From Phycisphaerae bacterium (GTDB taxonomy: Bacteria > Planctomycetota > Phycisphaerae > FEN-1346 > JAACEH01), in NCBI GenBank assembly GCA_041690105.1, contig JAWLHX010000005.1:1551-65550 (forward strand): a stretch of 64,000 nucleotides of DNA, in the 5' to 3' direction. This document shows positions 44,255 to 48,501 of the stretch, piece after piece (within the stretch, counting starts at the first letter, position 1; the number at the start of each line of letters is the position of its first letter). The position numbers and the translations under genes are program-made. The notes beneath the pieces are model-generated. The model did no database searches and was not told where the DNA came from. It saw only the letters and a program-made list of their open reading frames with translations.

Positions 44255-45070
44255 ATGCCAGGACGCGCCATCTGGAAGGGCATAATCACCTTCGGGCCAA
44301 TCTCGGTCCCGGTAAAGCTTTACAGCGTGCTGGAGAGCGCCAGGGTCAACTTCCACCTGCTGCACGACCAGGACCGCCAGCGTCTGCGCCAGCAGATGGT
44401 CTGCCCTCTGGAGGAGCGGCCGGTGGAGCGGGAGGAGACGGTAAAGGGCTATGAGGTGGAAAAAGGCCTCTACGTCATTGTTGAACCGTCGGAGTTGGAG
44501 GAGGCGCAACCGCCATCGGGCCGCGCCGTCGAGGTGCGACAGTTTGTTGCGGCCGATTCCATCGACCCGCGCTACTACGACCGGCCCTATTACCTTGGCC
44601 CTGATGAAAATGAGCGGGCCTTTGCCGCCCTGGCCGAGTGCCTCTCAAAGGAAGGCGTGGCGGGAATCTGCAACTGGGTCATGCGGAAAAAGTCGTACCT
44701 GGGAGCCCTGCGCCTGGTCGACAGAACGCTGTGCCTGATCAGCATGCATTACCACAGCGAGATAACGCCGGTGCAGGAGTTGGAGTTGCCACAGGCCAAG
44801 CTGGATAAACGCGAGCTCGAGGTGGCCAATTATCTTATCGAGACCCTGGCGGCCGACTGGAACCCGGATGCTTATCATAATGAATACGATGACCAGGTGC
44901 GCGAGCTGATCGAGCGTAAGTCGCGCGGCGAGCCCGTGCCGATCAAGCGGCGACGGCGCCCGCGGTCAACACGTCCAGACCGCCTGCTGGAGACACTGGA
45001 GGCCAGTGTGCGGGCCGCCGGCAAGAAGCGGAAGTCGAAGAAGGAATCTCATGCCAAAACCGGAAAATAA
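44255..45070 (+). CDS. ku: Ku protein, copy 1
   Basis: RAIWKGIITFGPISVPVKLY, FHLLH, KGYEVEKG, IDPRYYDRPYYLGP; GGAG RBS. Confidence 0.95.
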   Translation: MPGRAIWKGIITFGPISVPVKLYSVLESARVNFHLLHDQDRQRLRQQMVCPLEERPVEREETVKGYEVEKGLYVIVEPSELEEAQPPSGRAVEVRQFVAADSIDPRYYDRPYYLGPDENERAFAALAECLSKEGVAGICNWVMRKKSYLGALRLVDRTLCLISMHYHSEITPVQELELPQAKLDKRELEVANYLIETLAADWNPDAYHNEYDDQVRELIERKSRGEPVPIKRRRRPRSTRPDRLLETLEASVRAAGKKRKSKKESHAKTGK

Positions 45071-46307
45071 GCCCCGCCGGCGCAAGGGCGGAGAGCCGTC
45101 TGTGGCCCAGATTCGATCACCAGCCGGCACCAGAGGTGGCAAAGCACGGCCCGCGGCCAGCCTAGGACGGAACACCCGCGCCGGCGTTGACGCAGCTTCG
45201 GGCGAGATGGTATGTCCTTTCTGCGCCACCGGTTACCATTATGCTCAGGAGCGACGCTGCTGGGAGTGCGATGGCCCATCCTGCCCCCAGTGCGTCTCGC
45301 CCGACAACCACCCGCTCTGCCCCGAATGCGTCCAGAATCTGTCGCTGCCGCGCCACATACAGCCCATGCTGGCCACCCTCAGCAAATTGCCCGCCAGCCA
45401 GAGCGGCTGGGCCTACGAGTTCAAGTGGGACGGAGTCCGGGCCTTGTGCTACTGGGATGGCAAACGATTGCTGCTGGAGAGCCGCAATCTGCTCAACATC
45501 ACCTTTCGCTATCCCGAGTTTCACGATCTGGCCCTGCAACTGGGAGATCGCCCGGTAGTGCTGGACGGCGAAATTGTGGCCCTGGACCGACAAGGGAGTC
45601 CCAGTTTTCCGCTCCTTCAGCAAAGGATGCACATCAGCCCCGACCGGGTTGCCGAACGGGCCAGGCAGGTGCCCGCCCATTATTTCGTCTTCGATATTCT
45701 GCACCTTGGCCGTAAGTCGCTGATGCAGGAACCGTATCTGGCGCGTCGCAAAGCACTTGAATCGCTGGGAATCGATCATCCGCAGGTCAAGGTGCCTCCG
45801 CATGAGCTTGAAGATGGCGAAGCCATGCTTCAGACGGCTCGCGACCATCGGCTCGAAGGTATTGTGGCCAAGCGTACCGACAGCCCTTACGAGCCCGGTC
45901 GCCGCAGTCGGCAGTGGCTGAAAATCAAGATTGTGCAGGCCCAGGAACTGGTCATTGGCGGATGGACGCCCGAAATCAACAATGCCGGCCGCATTGGGTC
46001 GCTGCTGGTAGGCTATTACGAAGACAGCCCCCACGGCCCACGCTTGCGCTATGCCGGCAGTGTAGGCACGGGGTTTACCGATGCCGAAAACAAACTGCTG
46101 GTGCCCAGGCTGAAGCAACTGGAGCGCTCGGCCAGTCCGTTCGCCGATACTCCCCGCCGCAAGAACATGCGCCCGGTTGCGCCGCAACTGGTGGCCCACG
46201 TGGCCTACCGCCGCTGGCCCGCCGGCGGGCAGATACATCAGGCCTCGTACAAGGGACTGCGTGCCGATAAGCCTCCGCACGAAGTAGTCCGCGAAAGGCC
46301 ACGGTGA
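45051..46307 (+). CDS. ligD: LigD-type ATP-dependent DNA ligase domain with N-terminal 8-Cys domain
   Basis: QPMLAT, YEFKWDGVR, LDGEIV, FVFDIL, EGIVAK, WLKIK, OB domain YAGSVGTGF. AAGGA RBS before ATG 45051. Confidence 0.93.
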   Translation: MPKPENKPRRRKGGEPSVAQIRSPAGTRGGKARPAASLGRNTRAGVDAASGEMVCPFCATGYHYAQERRCWECDGPSCPQCVSPDNHPLCPECVQNLSLPRHIQPMLATLSKLPASQSGWAYEFKWDGVRALCYWDGKRLLLESRNLLNITFRYPEFHDLALQLGDRPVVLDGEIVALDRQGSPSFPLLQQRMHISPDRVAERARQVPAHYFVFDILHLGRKSLMQEPYLARRKALESLGIDHPQVKVPPHELEDGEAMLQTARDHRLEGIVAKRTDSPYEPGRRSRQWLKIKIVQAQELVIGGWTPEINNAGRIGSLLVGYYEDSPHGPRLRYAGSVGTGFTDAENKLLVPRLKQLERSASPFADTPRRKNMRPVAPQLVAHVAYRRWPAGGQIHQASYKGLRADKPPHEVVRERPR

Positions 46308-47128
46308 CCGCCATGCCTCCACGCAGCCTATGGAGTGGAACAATCAGCTTTGGACTGGTGAGTATTCCGGTCAACATGGTGCCGGCAGTGCGAGCGCAAC
46401 GGCTGCAGTTCCACATGCTGCACCGCAAGGACAACGCCCGGCTGCATCGCCGCATGTACTGCCCCGAGCACAACACCGTGGTGCATCCCGAGCACATCGT
46501 TCGGGGTTACGAGGTGGAGCCCGAGCAGTGGGTAACGGTGACCGAGGAGGAGCTTGACTCGCTGGAGCCTAAGCGTAGCCGCAGCATAGAGATAACCGAT
46601 TTCGTGCAGCTCGACGACATCCCGGCCCTGTACTACGATCGGCCATATTACCTGTTGCCCGACGGCGCCGGCAAGCCCTACAACCTGCTGGTCGAGGCCC
46701 TGTCGCGCAGCAAACGTGCAGGCCTTGCCCGCTTTGTGATGCATGGCCGTGAGCACCTGGTGGCCGTGCGGGCGATTGAGTCGGCCCTGTGCCTGATAAT
46801 GCTGCATTACCCGAGCGAAATCCGACCGGCCGACGACCTGCAGACGGACGCATCGCAGGCCGACAAAGATGCCGTCAAGACATTCCGCCGGGCGGCCAGC
46901 GGGCTGAAGTGGGATTTCGACCCGCAGGCTCATGAAAACCAATCGCTCGTGCGCCTGCAGCAGATAATCGAGAAGAAGCGGAAAAAGGTCGGCACGGTCG
47001 AAGCACCCGAGTCGTCCGAAGCGGAGACACAGGAAGAGGAGGCCGAGGAAGAGACCGGCGAATCGGTCGACCTGGTGGCCGCACTGGAAGCAAGCCTGGC
47101 CCGGGCCAAAAACAAGCGCCGCAAGTAA
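46304..47128 (+). CDS. ku: Ku protein, copy 2
   Basis: RSLWSGTISFGLVSIPV, IVRGYEV, IEITDFV, YYDRPYYLLP, DLVAALEASL. GTGA overlap with the ligase stop. Confidence 0.95.
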   Translation: MTAMPPRSLWSGTISFGLVSIPVNMVPAVRAQRLQFHMLHRKDNARLHRRMYCPEHNTVVHPEHIVRGYEVEPEQWVTVTEEELDSLEPKRSRSIEITDFVQLDDIPALYYDRPYYLLPDGAGKPYNLLVEALSRSKRAGLARFVMHGREHLVAVRAIESALCLIMLHYPSEIRPADDLQTDASQADKDAVKTFRRAASGLKWDFDPQAHENQSLVRLQQIIEKKRKKVGTVEAPESSEAETQEEEAEEETGESVDLVAALEASLARAKNKRRK

Positions 47129-47177
47129 GGCATTTGACCGAACCTCAAGTGCAGCAAGCAGATTGGAAGAGAACCGG

Positions 47178-48086
47178 ATGGCCAAACAGAAGACCACTGT
47201 GGAAGTTGCCGGAAAGAAGCTCGAACTGTCCAACCTGGACAAGGTTCTGTACCCAGAGACCGGCTTCACCAAAGGGCAGACCATCGACTATTACCGCCGC
47301 ATGGCCCCGCTCATATTGCCTCACCTTGAGGGCCACCCACTCACGCTGAAGCGCTACCCGCACGGTGTGGCGGAAGATTTCTTCTACGAGAAGCGTTGCC
47401 CAAGTTACCGGCCCGAGTGGATGGAAACCCGGCAGGTTGACACGCGCAGCGACAAGCCGCTCAAATATTGCGTGGTGAACGATGAGCCGGGCCTCGTCTG
47501 GGTGGCGAACCTGGCCAGCATCGAGCTTCACTCTCTGCTGTATCGCAAGGAGCATCTGGACAGGCCTACAGCTCTGGTCTTCGACCTGGACCCGGGTCCG
47601 CCCGCCGGACTGCTGCAATGCGCGGAGGTTGCCCTGGCAATGCGCGACATGCTGGGCGAACTGGGCCTGGAGAGTTTCCCCAAGTCCAGTGGCGGCAACG
47701 GCCTGCACTTTTACGTGCCGCTGAACACGCCGGTCACCTTCGACGACACGAAAGGCTTTGCCCGAGCCGTGGCCCGTACTTTCGAGAAGCATCAGGGTGA
47801 CCAGGTGACAAGCGTGATGAAAAAATCGGAACGCACCGGAAAGGTCTTCATCGACTGGAGCCAGAACGACCAGCACAAGACGACTGTTTGCGTCTATTCG
47901 CTGCGGGCTCGCCAAAGGCCGACGGTATCGGCGCCATTGGAATGGAAGGAAGTTGAGCAGGCGGTTAAGCGCGAAGATGCATCAGGGCTTATTTTTGAAG
48001 CCGAGCAGATGCTGCAGCGGGCCGACAAAAAGGGCGACCTGTTCGCGCCGGTGCTTACGCTCAAGCAGAAGCTCCCAGCAATCTGA
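47178..48086 (+). CDS. ligD: Stand-alone LigD primase-polymerase domain
   Basis: LSNLDKVLYP, LTLKRYPHG, FDLDPG, KSSGGNGLH, VFIDWSQN, VYSLRAR..PTVSAPLEW. Confidence 0.95.
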   Translation: MAKQKTTVEVAGKKLELSNLDKVLYPETGFTKGQTIDYYRRMAPLILPHLEGHPLTLKRYPHGVAEDFFYEKRCPSYRPEWMETRQVDTRSDKPLKYCVVNDEPGLVWVANLASIELHSLLYRKEHLDRPTALVFDLDPGPPAGLLQCAEVALAMRDMLGELGLESFPKSSGGNGLHFYVPLNTPVTFDDTKGFARAVARTFEKHQGDQVTSVMKKSERTGKVFIDWSQNDQHKTTVCVYSLRARQRPTVSAPLEWKEVEQAVKREDASGLIFEAEQMLQRADKKGDLFAPVLTLKQKLPAI

Positions 48087-48147: not shown

Positions 48148-48501
48148 TCACATCCAGTACGGGTCAACGCCGTAGAAATCGTGCACCTGCATGGCCCAGC
48201 GCTGATTAGCCATGTCGGGCCAATGGTCTTTGTCGAAACCCGGCGCATCCTTCAGCACTGCCTTATCGACATTGAGCACAAAATGCTTCTTCTCCCGGTC
48301 CAGCGACAGCGCCCCCCAGGGCACGGCAAAATACTTGTCGCCCATGCCTAGAAAACCGCCGAAGCTCAGCACCACGTAGGCGATGCATCCCCGCTCGATG
48401 TCGATGGCCATATCCTGGATCTCGCCGAGCTTTTCGCCCTGCATGTTCACAACGTCTTCCCGGGTTACAGCGCTGACAGCTATTATCTTTGCACCAGACA
48501 T
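48148..48501 (-). CDS. PRC-barrel domain protein
   Basis: DVVN..GEKLGEIQD, IAYVVLSFGGFLGMGDKYFAVPW, LKDAPGFD..HWP. Confidence 0.92.
   Translation of the reverse strand: MSGAKIIAVSAVTREDVVNMQGEKLGEIQDMAIDIERGCIAYVVLSFGGFLGMGDKYFAVPWGALSLDREKKHFVLNVDKAVLKDAPGFDKDHWPDMANQRWAMQVHDFYGVDPYWM

What the first reader, a model, noticed from the sequence alone, without database searches (positions are those of the whole stretch)
45213..45329. 8-cysteine putative double zinc finger fused to the N-terminus of the NHEJ ligase
Seen: CPFC-x11-CWEC-x4-CPQC-x8-CPEC, in frame between a basic N-terminal tail (KPRRRK) and the adenylation domain, with no stop or frameshift. Established: bacterial LigD ligase domains are normally fused to POL and/or PE domains; zinc fingers on ligases are known from eukaryotic Lig3 and NAD-dependent LigA, but those have different patterns. 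Inference: a two-Zn cross-brace module serving as break sensor or Ku-docking domain in place of the missing domains.
Basis: partly seen in the sequence, partly recalled or inferred. Interest (0 to 1): 0.72.

Follow-up and report, generated by a model that had tools for sequence, protein, structure and literature searches.

The report
Ku-linked zinc finger fused to ligase
A conserved eight-cysteine, probably two-zinc mini-domain sits on the front of a bacterial DNA-break-repair ligase, and the same domain also exists as a tiny separate protein always encoded next to a pair of Ku genes, so it looks like an undescribed third part of bacterial end-joining repair.

Summary
Codons 45213-45329 encode CxxC-x11-CxxC-x4-CxxC-x8-CxxC, in frame with an intact LigD-type ligase core.

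- **Conservation:** the fusion is not a singleton. 50 of the 120 best ligase homologues (46-75% identical) carry the module, and all eight Cys are invariant.
- **Fold:** AlphaFold gives a confident model (pLDDT 89). Its best structural matches are FYVE, PHD and RIM fingers, and the best sequence match is MID1 B-box1. All of these are cross-brace two-zinc folds. No Pfam or NCBIfam family covers the module.
- **Stand-alone relatives:** the same domain (hhalign 99.1%, E 1e-18) exists as a ~73-aa protein. That protein lies directly upstream of Ku in 29 of 30 loci; the 30th is cut at the locus edge. It is followed by two tandem Ku genes in 22 of 22 loci that reach far enough, across four phyla.
- **Ku pair:** the window's two Ku genes belong to the same two deep clades as those pairs.
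- **Fused operon:** the order is KuA, ZnF-ligase, KuB, PrimPol in 5 of 5 loci.

I read the module as the NHEJ-specific partner of a KuA/KuB pair, here fused to the ligase to tether it to Ku. That function is inferred, not shown. The searched literature does not describe the module.

The parts
44255..45070 (+). KuA: the first Ku paralogue (271 aa, starts MPGRAIWKG)
   Evidence: Pfam Ku E 8e-42 and TIGR02772 at 255.9 bits. In the Ku tree it falls in the 100*-supported clade that also holds the upstream Ku of the fused operons and the FIRST Ku of the stand-alone ZnF-Ku-Ku operons.
45051..46307 (+). ZnF-ligase gene (418 aa from ATG 45051; 366 aa if it starts at ATG 45207)
   Evidence: The ORF is open from 45006. 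ATG 45051 overlaps the KuA stop (45068-45070) by 20 nt and has GAAGGA 5 nt upstream. In L001-L003 and L135 the ligase start likewise overlaps the Ku stop.
45051..45206 (+). Basic, low-complexity N-terminal tail (52 aa, net charge about +8); lineage-specific, and its translation is uncertain
   Evidence: Only the two nearest relatives have a comparable tail, of 23 and 50 aa. Most family members have 7-14 residues before the first Cys. GC3 is 0.63 against 0.71-0.78 in the neighbouring genes. The residues 'GE' before Met53 are conserved in P0001-P0003.
45213..45329 (+). Eight-Cys module: CxxC-x11-CxxC-x4-CxxC-x8-CxxC (residues 55-93)
   Evidence: All eight Cys are invariant in 40 homologues. AF2 gives pLDDT 89. 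Foldseek's best matches are FYVE, PHD and RIM cross-brace fingers. hhalign to the stand-alone Ku-linked family gives 99.1%, E 1.3e-18.
45330..45362 (+). Short linker from the zinc finger to the ligase core (VQNLSLPRHIQ, leading into PMLA)
   Evidence: The distance from the last Cys to the PML motif is 9-13 residues in 48 of 50 fused proteins. One protein has 53 residues (Thiohalocapsa P0061).
45363..46304 (+). LigD-type ATP-dependent ligase core (nucleotidyltransferase plus OB domains)
   Evidence: Pfam DNA_ligase_A_M at 105-293 and DNA_ligase_A_C at 312-407; TIGR02779 at 272.6 bits, above the 227.75 cut-off. Motifs I KWDG(125), III DGEIV(172), IIIa YFVFD(211), IV EGIVAK(269) and V WLKIK(289) are intact. 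The closest solved structure is the M. tuberculosis LigD ligase domain, 1vs0/6nhz.
46304..47128 (+). KuB: the second Ku paralogue (274 aa; its GTG start overlaps the ligase stop as GTGA)
   Evidence: Pfam Ku E 2.6e-46 and TIGR02772 at 256.1 bits. It groups with the downstream Ku of the fused operons and the SECOND Ku of the stand-alone operons.
47163..48086 (+). Stand-alone LigD primase-polymerase
   Evidence: Pfam LigD_Prim-Pol E 8e-86; TIGR02778 at 283.3 bits, above the 214.7 cut-off.

Best explanation
Residues 55-93 of the ligase form a small, independently folding module. It probably binds two zinc ions in a cross-brace arrangement: Cys pairs 1+3 on one ion and pairs 2+4 on the other.

The module belongs to a previously unnamed domain family that is specific to bacterial non-homologous end joining. 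It occurs in two forms:
- as a ~73-aa stand-alone protein encoded directly upstream of a conserved pair of Ku paralogues (KuA, KuB);
- as here, fused by a short linker to the N-terminus of a ligase-only LigD homologue whose gene lies between KuA and KuB.

I infer that the module is a protein-protein adaptor that docks on the KuA/KuB pair, which is probably a heterodimer. In this organism it would tether the separately encoded ligase to Ku-bound DNA ends.

Shown:
- the domain is real, conserved and in frame;
- it is homologous to the stand-alone family;
- the stand-alone family is strictly linked to KuA/KuB;
- the two Ku genes are orthologous across both architectures;
- the ligase catalytic motifs are intact.

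Predicted: the cross-brace fold.

Inferred: zinc binding, Ku docking and ligase recruitment.
For: 1. **Conservation.** 50 of the top 120 ligase homologues carry the module. All eight Cys are invariant, while the rest of the domain is 31-71% identical. The x11 and x4 spacers are invariant; only the third spacer varies, as the variable loop does in cross-brace fingers.
2. **Fold.** The AF2 domain model has pLDDT 89. The top Foldseek PDB matches are all cross-brace two-zinc fingers: FYVE 2yw8, 1joc and 1dvp (probability 0.98-0.99, TMq 0.66-0.72), then PHD and RIM. The PDB profile search puts MID1 B-box1 first (E 4e-4), then the UHRF1 PHD, RNF4 RING and FYVE.
3. **Same family as the stand-alone proteins.** hhalign of the fused against the stand-alone alignment gives 99.1%, E 1.3e-18. 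The profile search over 1.84 billion representatives found about 10 ligases and about 95 small proteins.
4. **Ku linkage.** The stand-alone gene lies immediately upstream of a Ku ORF on the same strand, overlapping it or within 4 nt. This holds in 29 of 30 distinct loci; the 30th is cut at the locus edge. Two tandem Ku genes follow in 22 of 22 loci that extend far enough. Named hosts are Pseudomonadota, Acidobacteriota, Gemmatimonadota and Myxococcota.
5. **Fused operon.** The order is KuA, ZnF-ligase, KuB, PrimPol in 5 of 5 loci: the window, L001, L002, L003 and L135.
6. **Ku tree.** There are two deep clades. The window's Ku1 groups with the first Ku of the stand-alone operons (100*). Ku2 groups with the second Ku. 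The two subtrees mirror each other.
7. **Charge.** The finger core is acidic (mean net charge -2.65 fused, -1.95 stand-alone). KuA ends in a strongly basic arm (+10 over its last 70 residues).
8. **Motif lost on fusion.** The stand-alone proteins have a W-W/Y-W motif ('PWWL') before the first Cys in 50 of 55 cases. None of the 50 fused proteins has it. This fits a docking motif made redundant by covalent fusion.
9. **A relative with neither feature.** A close ligase relative without the finger sits in an operon with only one Ku (L132).
Against: - No experiment and no complex model supports contact with Ku. The link is genomic only.
- One relative, L133, has the order PE, KuA-type Ku, ligase, KuB-type Ku and no finger anywhere in 9.8 kb. 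A paired-Ku operon therefore does not require the module.
- In six loci the stand-alone finger sits directly downstream of a ligase gene, and five of those are a two-domain LigD (ligase plus polymerase). 'Compensating for a split-off polymerase' is therefore not a general rationale.
- The acidic core is only suggestive. One or two Arg before the third Cys are well conserved and could contact phosphate.
- The AF2 model was built without metal and I could not read its coordinates. The 1+3 / 2+4 ligand pairing rests on fold matches and spacing, not on measured distances.
- All Foldseek E-values for the 45-residue model are above 0.08.
Confidence: 0.55

Rival explanations
1. DNA-break or nick sensor. 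The finger binds DNA ends or nicks directly, like the N-terminal zinc finger of eukaryotic DNA ligase III. Alternatively it supplies the DNA-binding surface that ligase-only LigD cores lack, since they have no Lig1-type DNA-binding domain.
For: - It sits at the N-terminus, just before the nucleotidyltransferase domain, where ligases I, III and IV carry DNA-binding domains. The linker is short and constrained: 9-13 residues in 48 of 50 proteins.
- Arg-Arg before the third Cys is conserved at 70% or more.
- In this lineage a very basic tail precedes the finger.
Against: - The finger core is acidic on average (-2.65, range -7 to +2).
- It shows no similarity to the PARP/Lig3-type or LigA-type fingers in the Pfam or PDB searches.
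- The stand-alone form is tied to the Ku pair in every evaluable locus but has a ligase gene directly beside it in only 6 of 30 loci.
- The basic tail is absent from most family members.
Confidence: 0.2
2. Assembly or regulatory factor for the Ku pair. The module helps form, stabilise or gate the KuA/KuB heterodimer, for example by controlling loading or threading. It may also act as a zinc/redox switch that turns end joining on under stress. Its fusion to the ligase would then be only a convenient way to co-express it.
For: - The stand-alone gene is always first in the ZnF-KuA-KuB unit and is translationally coupled to KuA.
- Eight thiolates make a plausible redox-sensitive element.
- Paired-Ku NHEJ in S. 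meliloti is stress-induced (PMC6379672).
Against: - In the fused form the module is held on the ligase by a short, length-constrained linker across at least 50 clusters. That argues for a role within the ligase's own action rather than mere co-expression.
- L133 has a KuA/KuB-type pair without any finger.
Confidence: 0.15
3. Intramolecular structural cap. The finger packs on the ligase's own nucleotidyltransferase or OB domains and only stabilises or autoinhibits the enzyme. It has no external partner.
For: - The linker is short and conserved.
- In the full-length AF2 model the finger region keeps pLDDT 74-90 and pTM is 0.74.
Against: - The same domain works as a free 73-aa protein in operons that often have no ligase within 8 kb.
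- In Thiohalocapsa the finger is separated from the core by a 53-residue flexible linker.
Confidence: 0.07
4. Annotation artefact. The true start is the Met of MLATL (ATG 45366, codon 106), and the Cys cluster is an untranslated or chance-open leader.
For: Many LigD-type ligase homologues start at or near the MLA motif.
Against: - The eight Cys and two spacers are invariant across 50 proteins at 46-75% overall identity.
- GC3 of the segment is 0.75, like the coding genes around it.
- The domain is homologous to an independent protein family.
- There is no Shine-Dalgarno-like sequence before that ATG.
Confidence: 0.02

Closest known systems
Stand-alone eight-Cys protein of ZnF-KuA-KuB operons
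   Same: It is the same domain family: hhalign 99.1%, E 1.3e-18. The CxxC-x11-CxxC-x4-CxxC core, the Asp after the fourth Cys and the Pro after the seventh Cys are shared. It has the same genomic partners, a KuA-type and a KuB-type Ku.
   Different: Here the domain is covalently fused to a ligase, and its gene sits between KuA and KuB rather than in front of them. The fused form lacks the N-terminal PWWL-type motif (0 of 50 against 50 of 55). Its third spacer is short and fixed (x8) rather than x7-16.
Mycobacterium tuberculosis LigD ligase domain (PDB 1vs0, 6nhx, 6nhz)
   Same: The ligase core is homologous: phmmer E 1e-54 over query residues 103-415, Foldseek E 1.6e-29, 39% identity. Motifs I-V are shared.
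   Different: M. tuberculosis LigD carries its polymerase and phosphoesterase domains on the same chain as the ligase (PRK09632; domain order from memory) and has no zinc finger. Here the polymerase is a separate gene, no PE is found in the window, and residues 1-102 have no counterpart in any solved ligase.
Cross-brace two-zinc fingers: FYVE (e.g. 2yw8, 1joc), MID1 B-box1 (2ffw), PHD, RING
   Same: The predicted fold matches best to these. The first six ligands have the same spacing as in B-box1 and FYVE (CxxC-x(n)-CxxC-x4-CxxC), and the loop before the last pair is variable.
   Different: All eight ligands are Cys; there is no His. The FYVE signatures (WxxD, R(R/K)HHCR, RVC) are absent. Pfam zf-B_box scores 16.2 against a 24.1 cut-off, and FYVE, RING and PHD are not significant. 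Those families are overwhelmingly eukaryotic and none is known on a DNA ligase (from my own knowledge).
N-terminal zinc finger of eukaryotic DNA ligase III (PARP-like) and the C4 finger of NAD+-dependent LigA
   Same: Both are zinc-binding modules attached to a DNA ligase. The Lig3 finger is also N-terminal (from my own knowledge; the LigA architecture is described in PMC7470946).
   Different: Those are single-zinc modules with a different ligand pattern and fold, and they bind DNA. No sequence or fold match to them appeared here. The LigA finger lies C-terminal to the OB and HhH domains.
Sinorhizobium meliloti Ku3-Ku4 putative heterodimer pathway (Dupuy et al., PMC6379672)
   Same: It has two adjacent, co-inherited, divergent Ku paralogues that are both required in one NHEJ pathway, and one of them lacks the Lys-rich tail. 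In the window, KuA has a basic linker and KuB an acidic linker before the shared C-terminal helix.
   Different: No zinc-finger partner is reported there. I did not locate the ku3-ku4 pair. The pSymA stretch I fetched held one Ku and no finger. Orthology of KuA/KuB to Ku3/Ku4 was not tested.
Eukaryotic NHEJ accessory factors that dock on Ku through short motifs (APLF, XLF, PAXX); APLF also carries PBZ zinc fingers
   Same: This is a functional analogy only: a small adaptor that links Ku to the ligation machinery. The basic-then-PWWL N-terminus of the stand-alone proteins recalls the basic-then-aromatic Ku-binding motif of APLF (from memory, not tested).
   Different: There is no sequence or fold relationship. 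PBZ fingers are C2H2 single-zinc modules that bind poly(ADP-ribose).

Membership tests
LigD-type NHEJ ligase domain (TIGR02779 / Pfam DNA_ligase_A_M + DNA_ligase_A_C) | Profile score above the curated cut-off | tested here: met
   TIGR02779 scores 272.6 bits against a 227.75 cut-off over residues 105-413. PF01068 gives E 2e-37 and PF04679 gives E 6e-22.
LigD-type NHEJ ligase domain (TIGR02779 / Pfam DNA_ligase_A_M + DNA_ligase_A_C) | Catalytic nucleotidyltransferase motifs I, III, IIIa, IV and V, including the adenylated Lys | tested here: met
   KWDG at 125, DGEIV at 172, YFVFD at 211, EGIVAK at 269 and WLKIK at 289.
LigD-type NHEJ ligase domain (TIGR02779 / Pfam DNA_ligase_A_M + DNA_ligase_A_C) | Genomic association with Ku | tested here: met
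   Ku genes flank it on both sides, with overlapping start and stop codons.
Multidomain LigD (TIGR02776 / PRK09632 / PRK05972) | Polymerase and/or phosphoesterase domain on the same polypeptide; full-length score above the cut-off | tested here: not met
   TIGR02776 scores 238.7 against 373.2 and PRK09632 scores 287.7 against 989. PrimPol is a separate gene at 47163-48086. No PE was found in the window by tblastn.
Ku-linked eight-Cys zinc-finger family (stand-alone proteins, alignment A3) | CxxC-x11-CxxC-x4-CxxC-x(n)-CxxC core, with profile-profile homology | tested here: met
   hhalign A1 against A3 gives 99.1%, E 1.3e-18. The A3 HMM hits the window ORF at E 1.9e-14. Spacings are given.
Ku-linked eight-Cys zinc-finger family (stand-alone proteins, alignment A3) | Encoded beside one KuA-clade and one KuB-clade Ku gene | tested here: met
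   The window's Ku1 falls in clade A (100*) and Ku2 in clade B.
Ku-linked eight-Cys zinc-finger family (stand-alone proteins, alignment A3) | N-terminal PWWL-type aromatic motif; small free protein of about 55-120 aa | tested here: not met
   The motif is present in 50 of 55 stand-alone proteins and in 0 of 50 fused proteins. Here the domain is part of a 418-aa ligase.
B-box type 1 zinc finger (PF00643) | Pfam gathering score; last two ligands His (C-x2-C-x7-12-C-x2-C-x4-C-x2-[CH]-x3-4-H-x4-9-H, pattern from memory) | tested here: not met
   zf-B_box scores 16.2 bits against a 24.1 cut-off, E 0.012. The last pair is CxxC, not H...H. The best PDB sequence match is MID1 B-box1, but only over the first 34 positions.
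FYVE domain (PF01363) | WxxD, R(R/K)HHCR and RVC signature motifs (from memory); Pfam score | tested here: not met
   There is no significant Pfam FYVE hit for the window's domain. The sequence reads ERRCWEC, with no His-His, WxxD or RVC. Only fold-level similarity is seen: Foldseek probability 0.99, TMq 0.72, E 0.08.
RING / PHD fingers | C3HC4 or C4HC3 ligand sets with a His ligand | tested here: not met
   All eight ligand positions are invariant Cys. There are no significant Pfam hits.
Two-zinc cross-brace (treble-clef) structural class | Ligand pairs 1+3 and 2+4 each bind one zinc | tested here: inconclusive
   The Foldseek top 50 are all FYVE, PHD, RIM or related cross-brace fingers. The DSSP pattern (knuckle, hairpin, knuckle, terminal helix starting at the last CxxC) fits. 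However, the model's coordinates were not readable, no metal was modelled, and the E-values are above 0.08.
Ligase III / PARP-type zinc finger; LigA C4 finger | Single zinc site with CCHC (PARP-like) or C4 ligands in the family's position and pattern | tested here: not met
   No Pfam or PDB match to these families appeared at E up to 10. The pattern here has eight Cys.

The most novel reading that the evidence does not exclude
Many bacteria run a three-part Ku system. It would consist of a Ku70/80-like heterodimer of two ancient paralogues (KuA, KuB) plus a dedicated FYVE/B-box-like two-zinc subunit that bridges Ku to the ligase.

The ligase fusion in this window acts as the Rosetta stone. It implies that in the stand-alone systems the finger contacts the ligase. 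That contact would probably run through the PWWL motif, which disappears once the link is covalent. The zinc-finger body itself would dock on the Ku pair.
Probability: 0.35. Interest if true: 0.85.

Novelty: new variant of a known kind. Interest (0 to 1): 0.72.

Why it matters
Bacterial NHEJ is described in textbooks as a two-component system: a Ku homodimer plus LigD. This finding points to a conserved extra module found in at least five phyla. The module has no Pfam or NCBIfam family and was not mentioned in the papers I could search. It travels with a co-evolving pair of Ku paralogues, and in Planctomycetota and some Gammaproteobacteria it is fused to the ligase itself.

This gives a concrete handle on two open questions:
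- Do bacterial Ku heterodimers exist, and what do they need?
- How is a ligase recruited to Ku when it is not part of a multidomain LigD?

A compact four-gene cassette (KuA, ZnF-ligase, KuB, PrimPol) is also directly testable by reconstitution. It could be a useful alternative NHEJ kit for genome editing in bacteria that lack end joining.

Tried and rejected
I replaced it with a degenerate DNA pattern scan of genome contigs. It also pulled in unrelated Cys-rich proteins.
- **tblastn** of a stand-alone finger against PLSDB plasmids gave no match.
- **S. meliloti Ku3-Ku4.** I tried to tie the module to the studied ku3-ku4 operon. I fetched pSymA 215-255 kb from my memory of the locus tags. It held one Ku, a ligase-only gene and a LigD, but no finger and no Ku pair. 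This is inconclusive, because I may have fetched the wrong stretch.
- **Region-restricted homology search** on residues 50-100 returned only the query and its nearest relative, because it relies on shared words.
- **Pfam and NCBIfam scans** of the domain and of the stand-alone proteins gave only sub-threshold hits to assorted zinc fingers: B-box, DZR, FYVE, RING, ZZ and IBR.
- **Promoter and terminator scan** of the operon was uninformative.
- **Full-length AF2 model.** It matches DNA-bound, closed ligase I better than the open M. tuberculosis LigD crystal form. This reflects domain orientation only. I rejected it as evidence that the finger mimics a DNA-binding domain, because the aligned columns could not be inspected.
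- **Model coordinates** are not exposed, so Cys-Cys distances could not be measured.
- **The genome search and the fetch from genomes** were shut, so the window's own genome and a systematic co-occurrence census could not be examined.
- **'True start downstream'** was considered and rejected (see rival explanations).
Full report
**1. What is in the sequence**

The region holds four same-strand, tightly packed genes:
- a Ku gene (44255-45070);
- an ORF with a LigD-type ligase core (45006/45051-46307);
- a second Ku gene (46304-47128);
- a stand-alone LigD primase-polymerase (47163-48086).

The ligase ORF reads, from ATG 45051, a 52-residue basic low-complexity tail, then Met-Val, then CPFC-x11-CWEC-x4-CPQC-x8-CPEC. 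The first Cys codon is at 45213 and the last at 45327-45329, exactly the coordinates given. An 11-residue linker (VQNLSLPRHIQ) then leads into the PMLATL start of the nucleotidyltransferase domain.

Eight of the protein's nine Cys lie in residues 55-93, and ligase motifs I-V are intact. TIGR02779 (NHEJ ligase domain) is passed at 272.6 bits against a 227.75 cut-off. The full-length LigD models are not passed. No phosphoesterase domain was found in the window by tblastn.

**2. Is the Cys cluster translated and conserved?**

Yes. A homology search returned thousands of LigD-type ligases. Among the 120 best, 50 proteins (46-75% identical overall) carry the same eight-Cys pattern at their N-terminus, usually 7-14 residues after Met1.

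In an alignment of 40 such domains all eight Cys are invariant, while the rest is only 31-71% identical. The first two spacers never vary: x11 and x4 in 50 of 50. Only the third spacer varies (x8 in 47, x7 in 2, x6 in 1). GC3 of this segment is 0.75, like the surrounding genes.

The idea that translation starts at the MLATL Met is therefore rejected.

The tail is less certain.
- **For translation from 45051:** the ATG has GAAGGA five bases upstream. It overlaps the Ku stop by 20 nt, as in every relative I examined. The residues Gly-Glu before Met53 are conserved in the three nearest proteins.
- **Against:** the tail's GC3 is only 0.63, and most family members have no such tail.

Either start keeps the finger in the protein.

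**3. Fold**

No Pfam or NCBIfam model covers the segment. The best sub-threshold hits are zf-B_box (E 0.012, 16.2 bits against a 24.1 cut-off) and double zinc ribbons.

A profile of the 40 domains against all PDB sequences puts MID1 B-box1 first (E 4e-4), followed by the UHRF1 PHD, RNF4 RING and FYVE domains.

AlphaFold2 on the domain alignment gives pLDDT 89. The model contains two short hairpins and a terminal helix that begins at the last CxxC. Foldseek against the PDB returns FYVE domains first (2yw8, 1joc, 1dvp; probability 0.98-0.99, TMq up to 0.72), then PHD and RIM/rabphilin fingers. All of these are cross-brace two-zinc folds.

E-values are weak (at least 0.08) because the domain has only 45 residues. 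I could not read the coordinates, and no metal was modelled. The cross-brace assignment is therefore a well-supported prediction, not a measurement. The spacing logic agrees with it: the first six ligands are spaced as in B-box1 and FYVE, and the variable loop precedes the last pair.

The domain fails the defining signatures of FYVE, B-box, RING and PHD, because it has no His ligands and no FYVE motifs. It is best called a new family within that structural class.

The full-length model is confident (pLDDT 92.5). Its core matches the M. tuberculosis LigD ligase domain. Residues 1-102 have no counterpart in any solved ligase.

**4. The domain has stand-alone relatives tied to Ku**

A profile search with the 45-residue alignment over 1.84 billion representative proteins found 123 hits:
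- about ten ligases with the finger at the N-terminus;
- a few unrelated repeat proteins;
- about 95 small proteins of 55-120 aa.

The small proteins share the consensus PWWL..G.E.C..C.Q.YAYE.E.RC..CD.P.CP.C(x7-16)CP.C.

Profile-profile comparison of the fused and free sets gives 99.1% probability, E 1.3e-18. They are one domain family. All sources call the free proteins hypothetical.

I looked up six of them on their contigs. Every one sits immediately upstream of a Ku gene. The three long contigs show ZnF-Ku-Ku, once preceded by a ligase gene.

I then ran local blastp and hmmsearch on the hits. This added 24 loci with a clear family member:
- 23 have a Ku ORF directly downstream on the same strand; the 24th is cut by the locus edge.
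- Wherever the sequence extends far enough, two tandem Ku genes follow. Counting the contig look-ups too, that is 22 of 22 loci.
- Five have a LigD (ligase plus polymerase) directly upstream.

Named hosts include Steroidobacteraceae, Ramlibacter ginsenosidimutans, Alcanivorax, Aliidiomarina sedimenti, Billgrantia lactosivorans, Wenzhouxiangella, Chromatiaceae, Gemmatimonas, Longimicrobiales, Pyrinomonadaceae, Blastocatellia, Bryobacteraceae, Thermoanaerobaculia and Polyangiaceae.

The named sources of fused proteins are Phycisphaerae and Planctomycetaceae MAGs and Thiohalocapsa sp. ML1.

**5. The Ku pair is the same pair in both architectures**

All five fused loci show the order Ku, ZnF-ligase, Ku, PrimPol. 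These are the window, L001, L002, L003 and L135. In L002 the polymerase also carries a PE domain.

A maximum-likelihood tree of 49 Ku proteins splits into two deep clades:
- The window's upstream Ku, the other fused-operon upstream Ku genes and the FIRST Ku of the stand-alone operons form one clade (SH-aLRT 100).
- The window's downstream Ku, the other downstream Ku genes and the SECOND Ku form the other.

The internal branching of the two stand-alone subclades mirrors each other lineage by lineage. This is what co-inherited partners look like.

It matches the genetic case for a bacterial Ku heterodimer in Sinorhizobium meliloti (Ku3-Ku4; PMC6379672). I could not place those proteins in this tree or find a finger near them (inconclusive).

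Two finger-less relatives of the ligase are informative:
- One sits in a ligase, Ku, PrimPol operon with a single Ku (L132).
- The other sits between a KuA-type and a KuB-type Ku with no finger anywhere in 9.8 kb (L133).

So in my sample the finger always comes with the Ku pair, but the pair does not always come with the finger.

On a tree of the ligase cores, presence of the finger is strongly clustered: 14 changes against about 38 in shuffles. One large clade of 56 lacks it. Several apparent losses are truncated calls on short contigs.

**6. How it most likely works**

The facts to explain are these:
- The module folds on its own and works both free and fused.
- When free, it is welded to KuA/KuB far more consistently than to any ligase.
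- When fused, it is held on the ligase by a short linker of constrained length: 9-13 residues in 48 of 50. Thiohalocapsa tolerates 53 residues.
- Its core is acidic (mean net charge -2.65 fused, -1.95 free). KuA ends in a strongly basic arm (+10 over the last 70 residues) and KuB has an acidic linker.
- The free proteins carry a basic-then-PWWL N-terminal motif in 50 of 55 cases. The motif is absent from all 50 fused proteins.

The simplest model is that the finger is a protein-protein adaptor that docks on the KuA/KuB pair. In this organism it tethers the separately encoded ligase to Ku-bound ends.

The motif that disappears on fusion is a natural candidate for the contact that the fusion made covalent, that is, the contact with the ligase. 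This last step is inference.

I give the adaptor or tether model about 0.55. The rivals:
- direct DNA-end or nick sensor, about 0.2. It is favoured by the N-terminal position and the conserved Arg-Arg, and disfavoured by the acidic core and the Ku-centred linkage;
- assembly or redox-regulatory role for the Ku pair, about 0.15;
- purely intramolecular cap, about 0.07;
- annotation artefact, about 0.02.

**7. Comparison with what is known, and novelty**

Zinc fingers on ligases are known from eukaryotic ligase III (PARP-like, N-terminal) and from NAD+-dependent LigA (C4) (PMC7470946). These are single-zinc, differently patterned DNA-binding modules, and no similarity to them appeared.

The following mention no zinc-finger component in bacterial NHEJ:
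- reviews and surveys of bacterial ATP-dependent ligases and of Ku evolution (PMC7470946, PMC11936186);
- the S. meliloti study;
- four full-text searches.

Two earlier notes of this scan (e1-1253092, e1-4227167) describe the free ZnF-Ku-Ku operon in other genomes. I saw them only after reaching the same result here. They agree with it but are not independent evidence. The fused form has no look-alike elsewhere in the scan.

I therefore rate this a new variant of a known kind. Bacterial NHEJ and cross-brace zinc fingers are both known. This domain family, its strict Ku-pair linkage and its fusion to the ligase are not described.

**8. Verdict**

- 'In place of the missing domains' is not supported, and 'break sensor' is the weaker reading.
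- Interest is 0.72. A specialist would be surprised by a conserved, unnamed third module in bacterial end joining, and the four-gene cassette makes the heterodimer and recruitment questions directly testable.

Noticed in passing
window 44255-45070 and 46304-47128: The two Ku genes belong to two deep, co-inherited clades (KuA, KuB) whose subtrees mirror each other across phyla. This is consistent with an obligate heterodimer. KuA has a basic linker and tail (+10 over its last 70 residues). KuB has an acidic linker (EAPESSEAETQEEEAEEETGE).
   Followed up: partly
window 48148-48501 (- strand); L133 4146-4505: A PRC-barrel protein (117 aa) lies next to the NHEJ operon here. A 55%-identical homologue lies next to the NHEJ genes in L133 (tblastn E 9e-45). 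This is a possible stress-linked neighbour.
   Followed up: partly
L017, L020, L026, L043, L060, L067, L074, L081, L089, L118, L122, L123 (Planctomycetota genome contigs): These loci hold an unrelated Cys-rich module (CYDCGY..DD.YYC..CD..FC..C..YC..CD...C..C). It has ten or more Cys and lies at the C-terminus of proteins of roughly 340-560 aa, sometimes as two adjacent pattern matches. It is not near Ku. It was picked up only by the DNA pattern scan.
   Followed up: no
P0061 / L003 6001-7314 (Thiohalocapsa sp. ML1): In this gammaproteobacterial member, a ~53-residue Asp/Ser/Gly-rich flexible linker separates the finger from the ligase core. In nearly all others the linker is 9-13 residues.
   Followed up: no
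P0126 (410 aa) and P0121 (316 aa): P0126 reads as ZnF-ligase running into a PrimPol C-terminus. P0121 reads as a Ku C-terminus running into the finger and then out of frame. These are probably frameshifted or chimeric metagenome gene calls rather than real fusions.
   Followed up: no
L091 2550-3446 and L110 5142-5988 (Acidobacteriota): The KuA gene downstream of the stand-alone finger is split into two ORFs. This is either a sequencing error or a pseudogene.
   Followed up: no
L002 7884-9470; L133 4603-5217: The position of the phosphoesterase (LigD_N) varies between relatives. It is fused behind PrimPol in L002, is a separate gene in front of KuA in L133, and is absent from this window.
   Followed up: partly
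L010 4680-5852: A ligase-only gene (390 aa, with a weak match to a histone-like basic repeat, HC2) lies directly upstream of a free finger gene and the Ku pair. The gene order is therefore Lig, ZnF, KuA, KuB, rather than the fused KuA, ZnF-Lig, KuB order.
   Followed up: no
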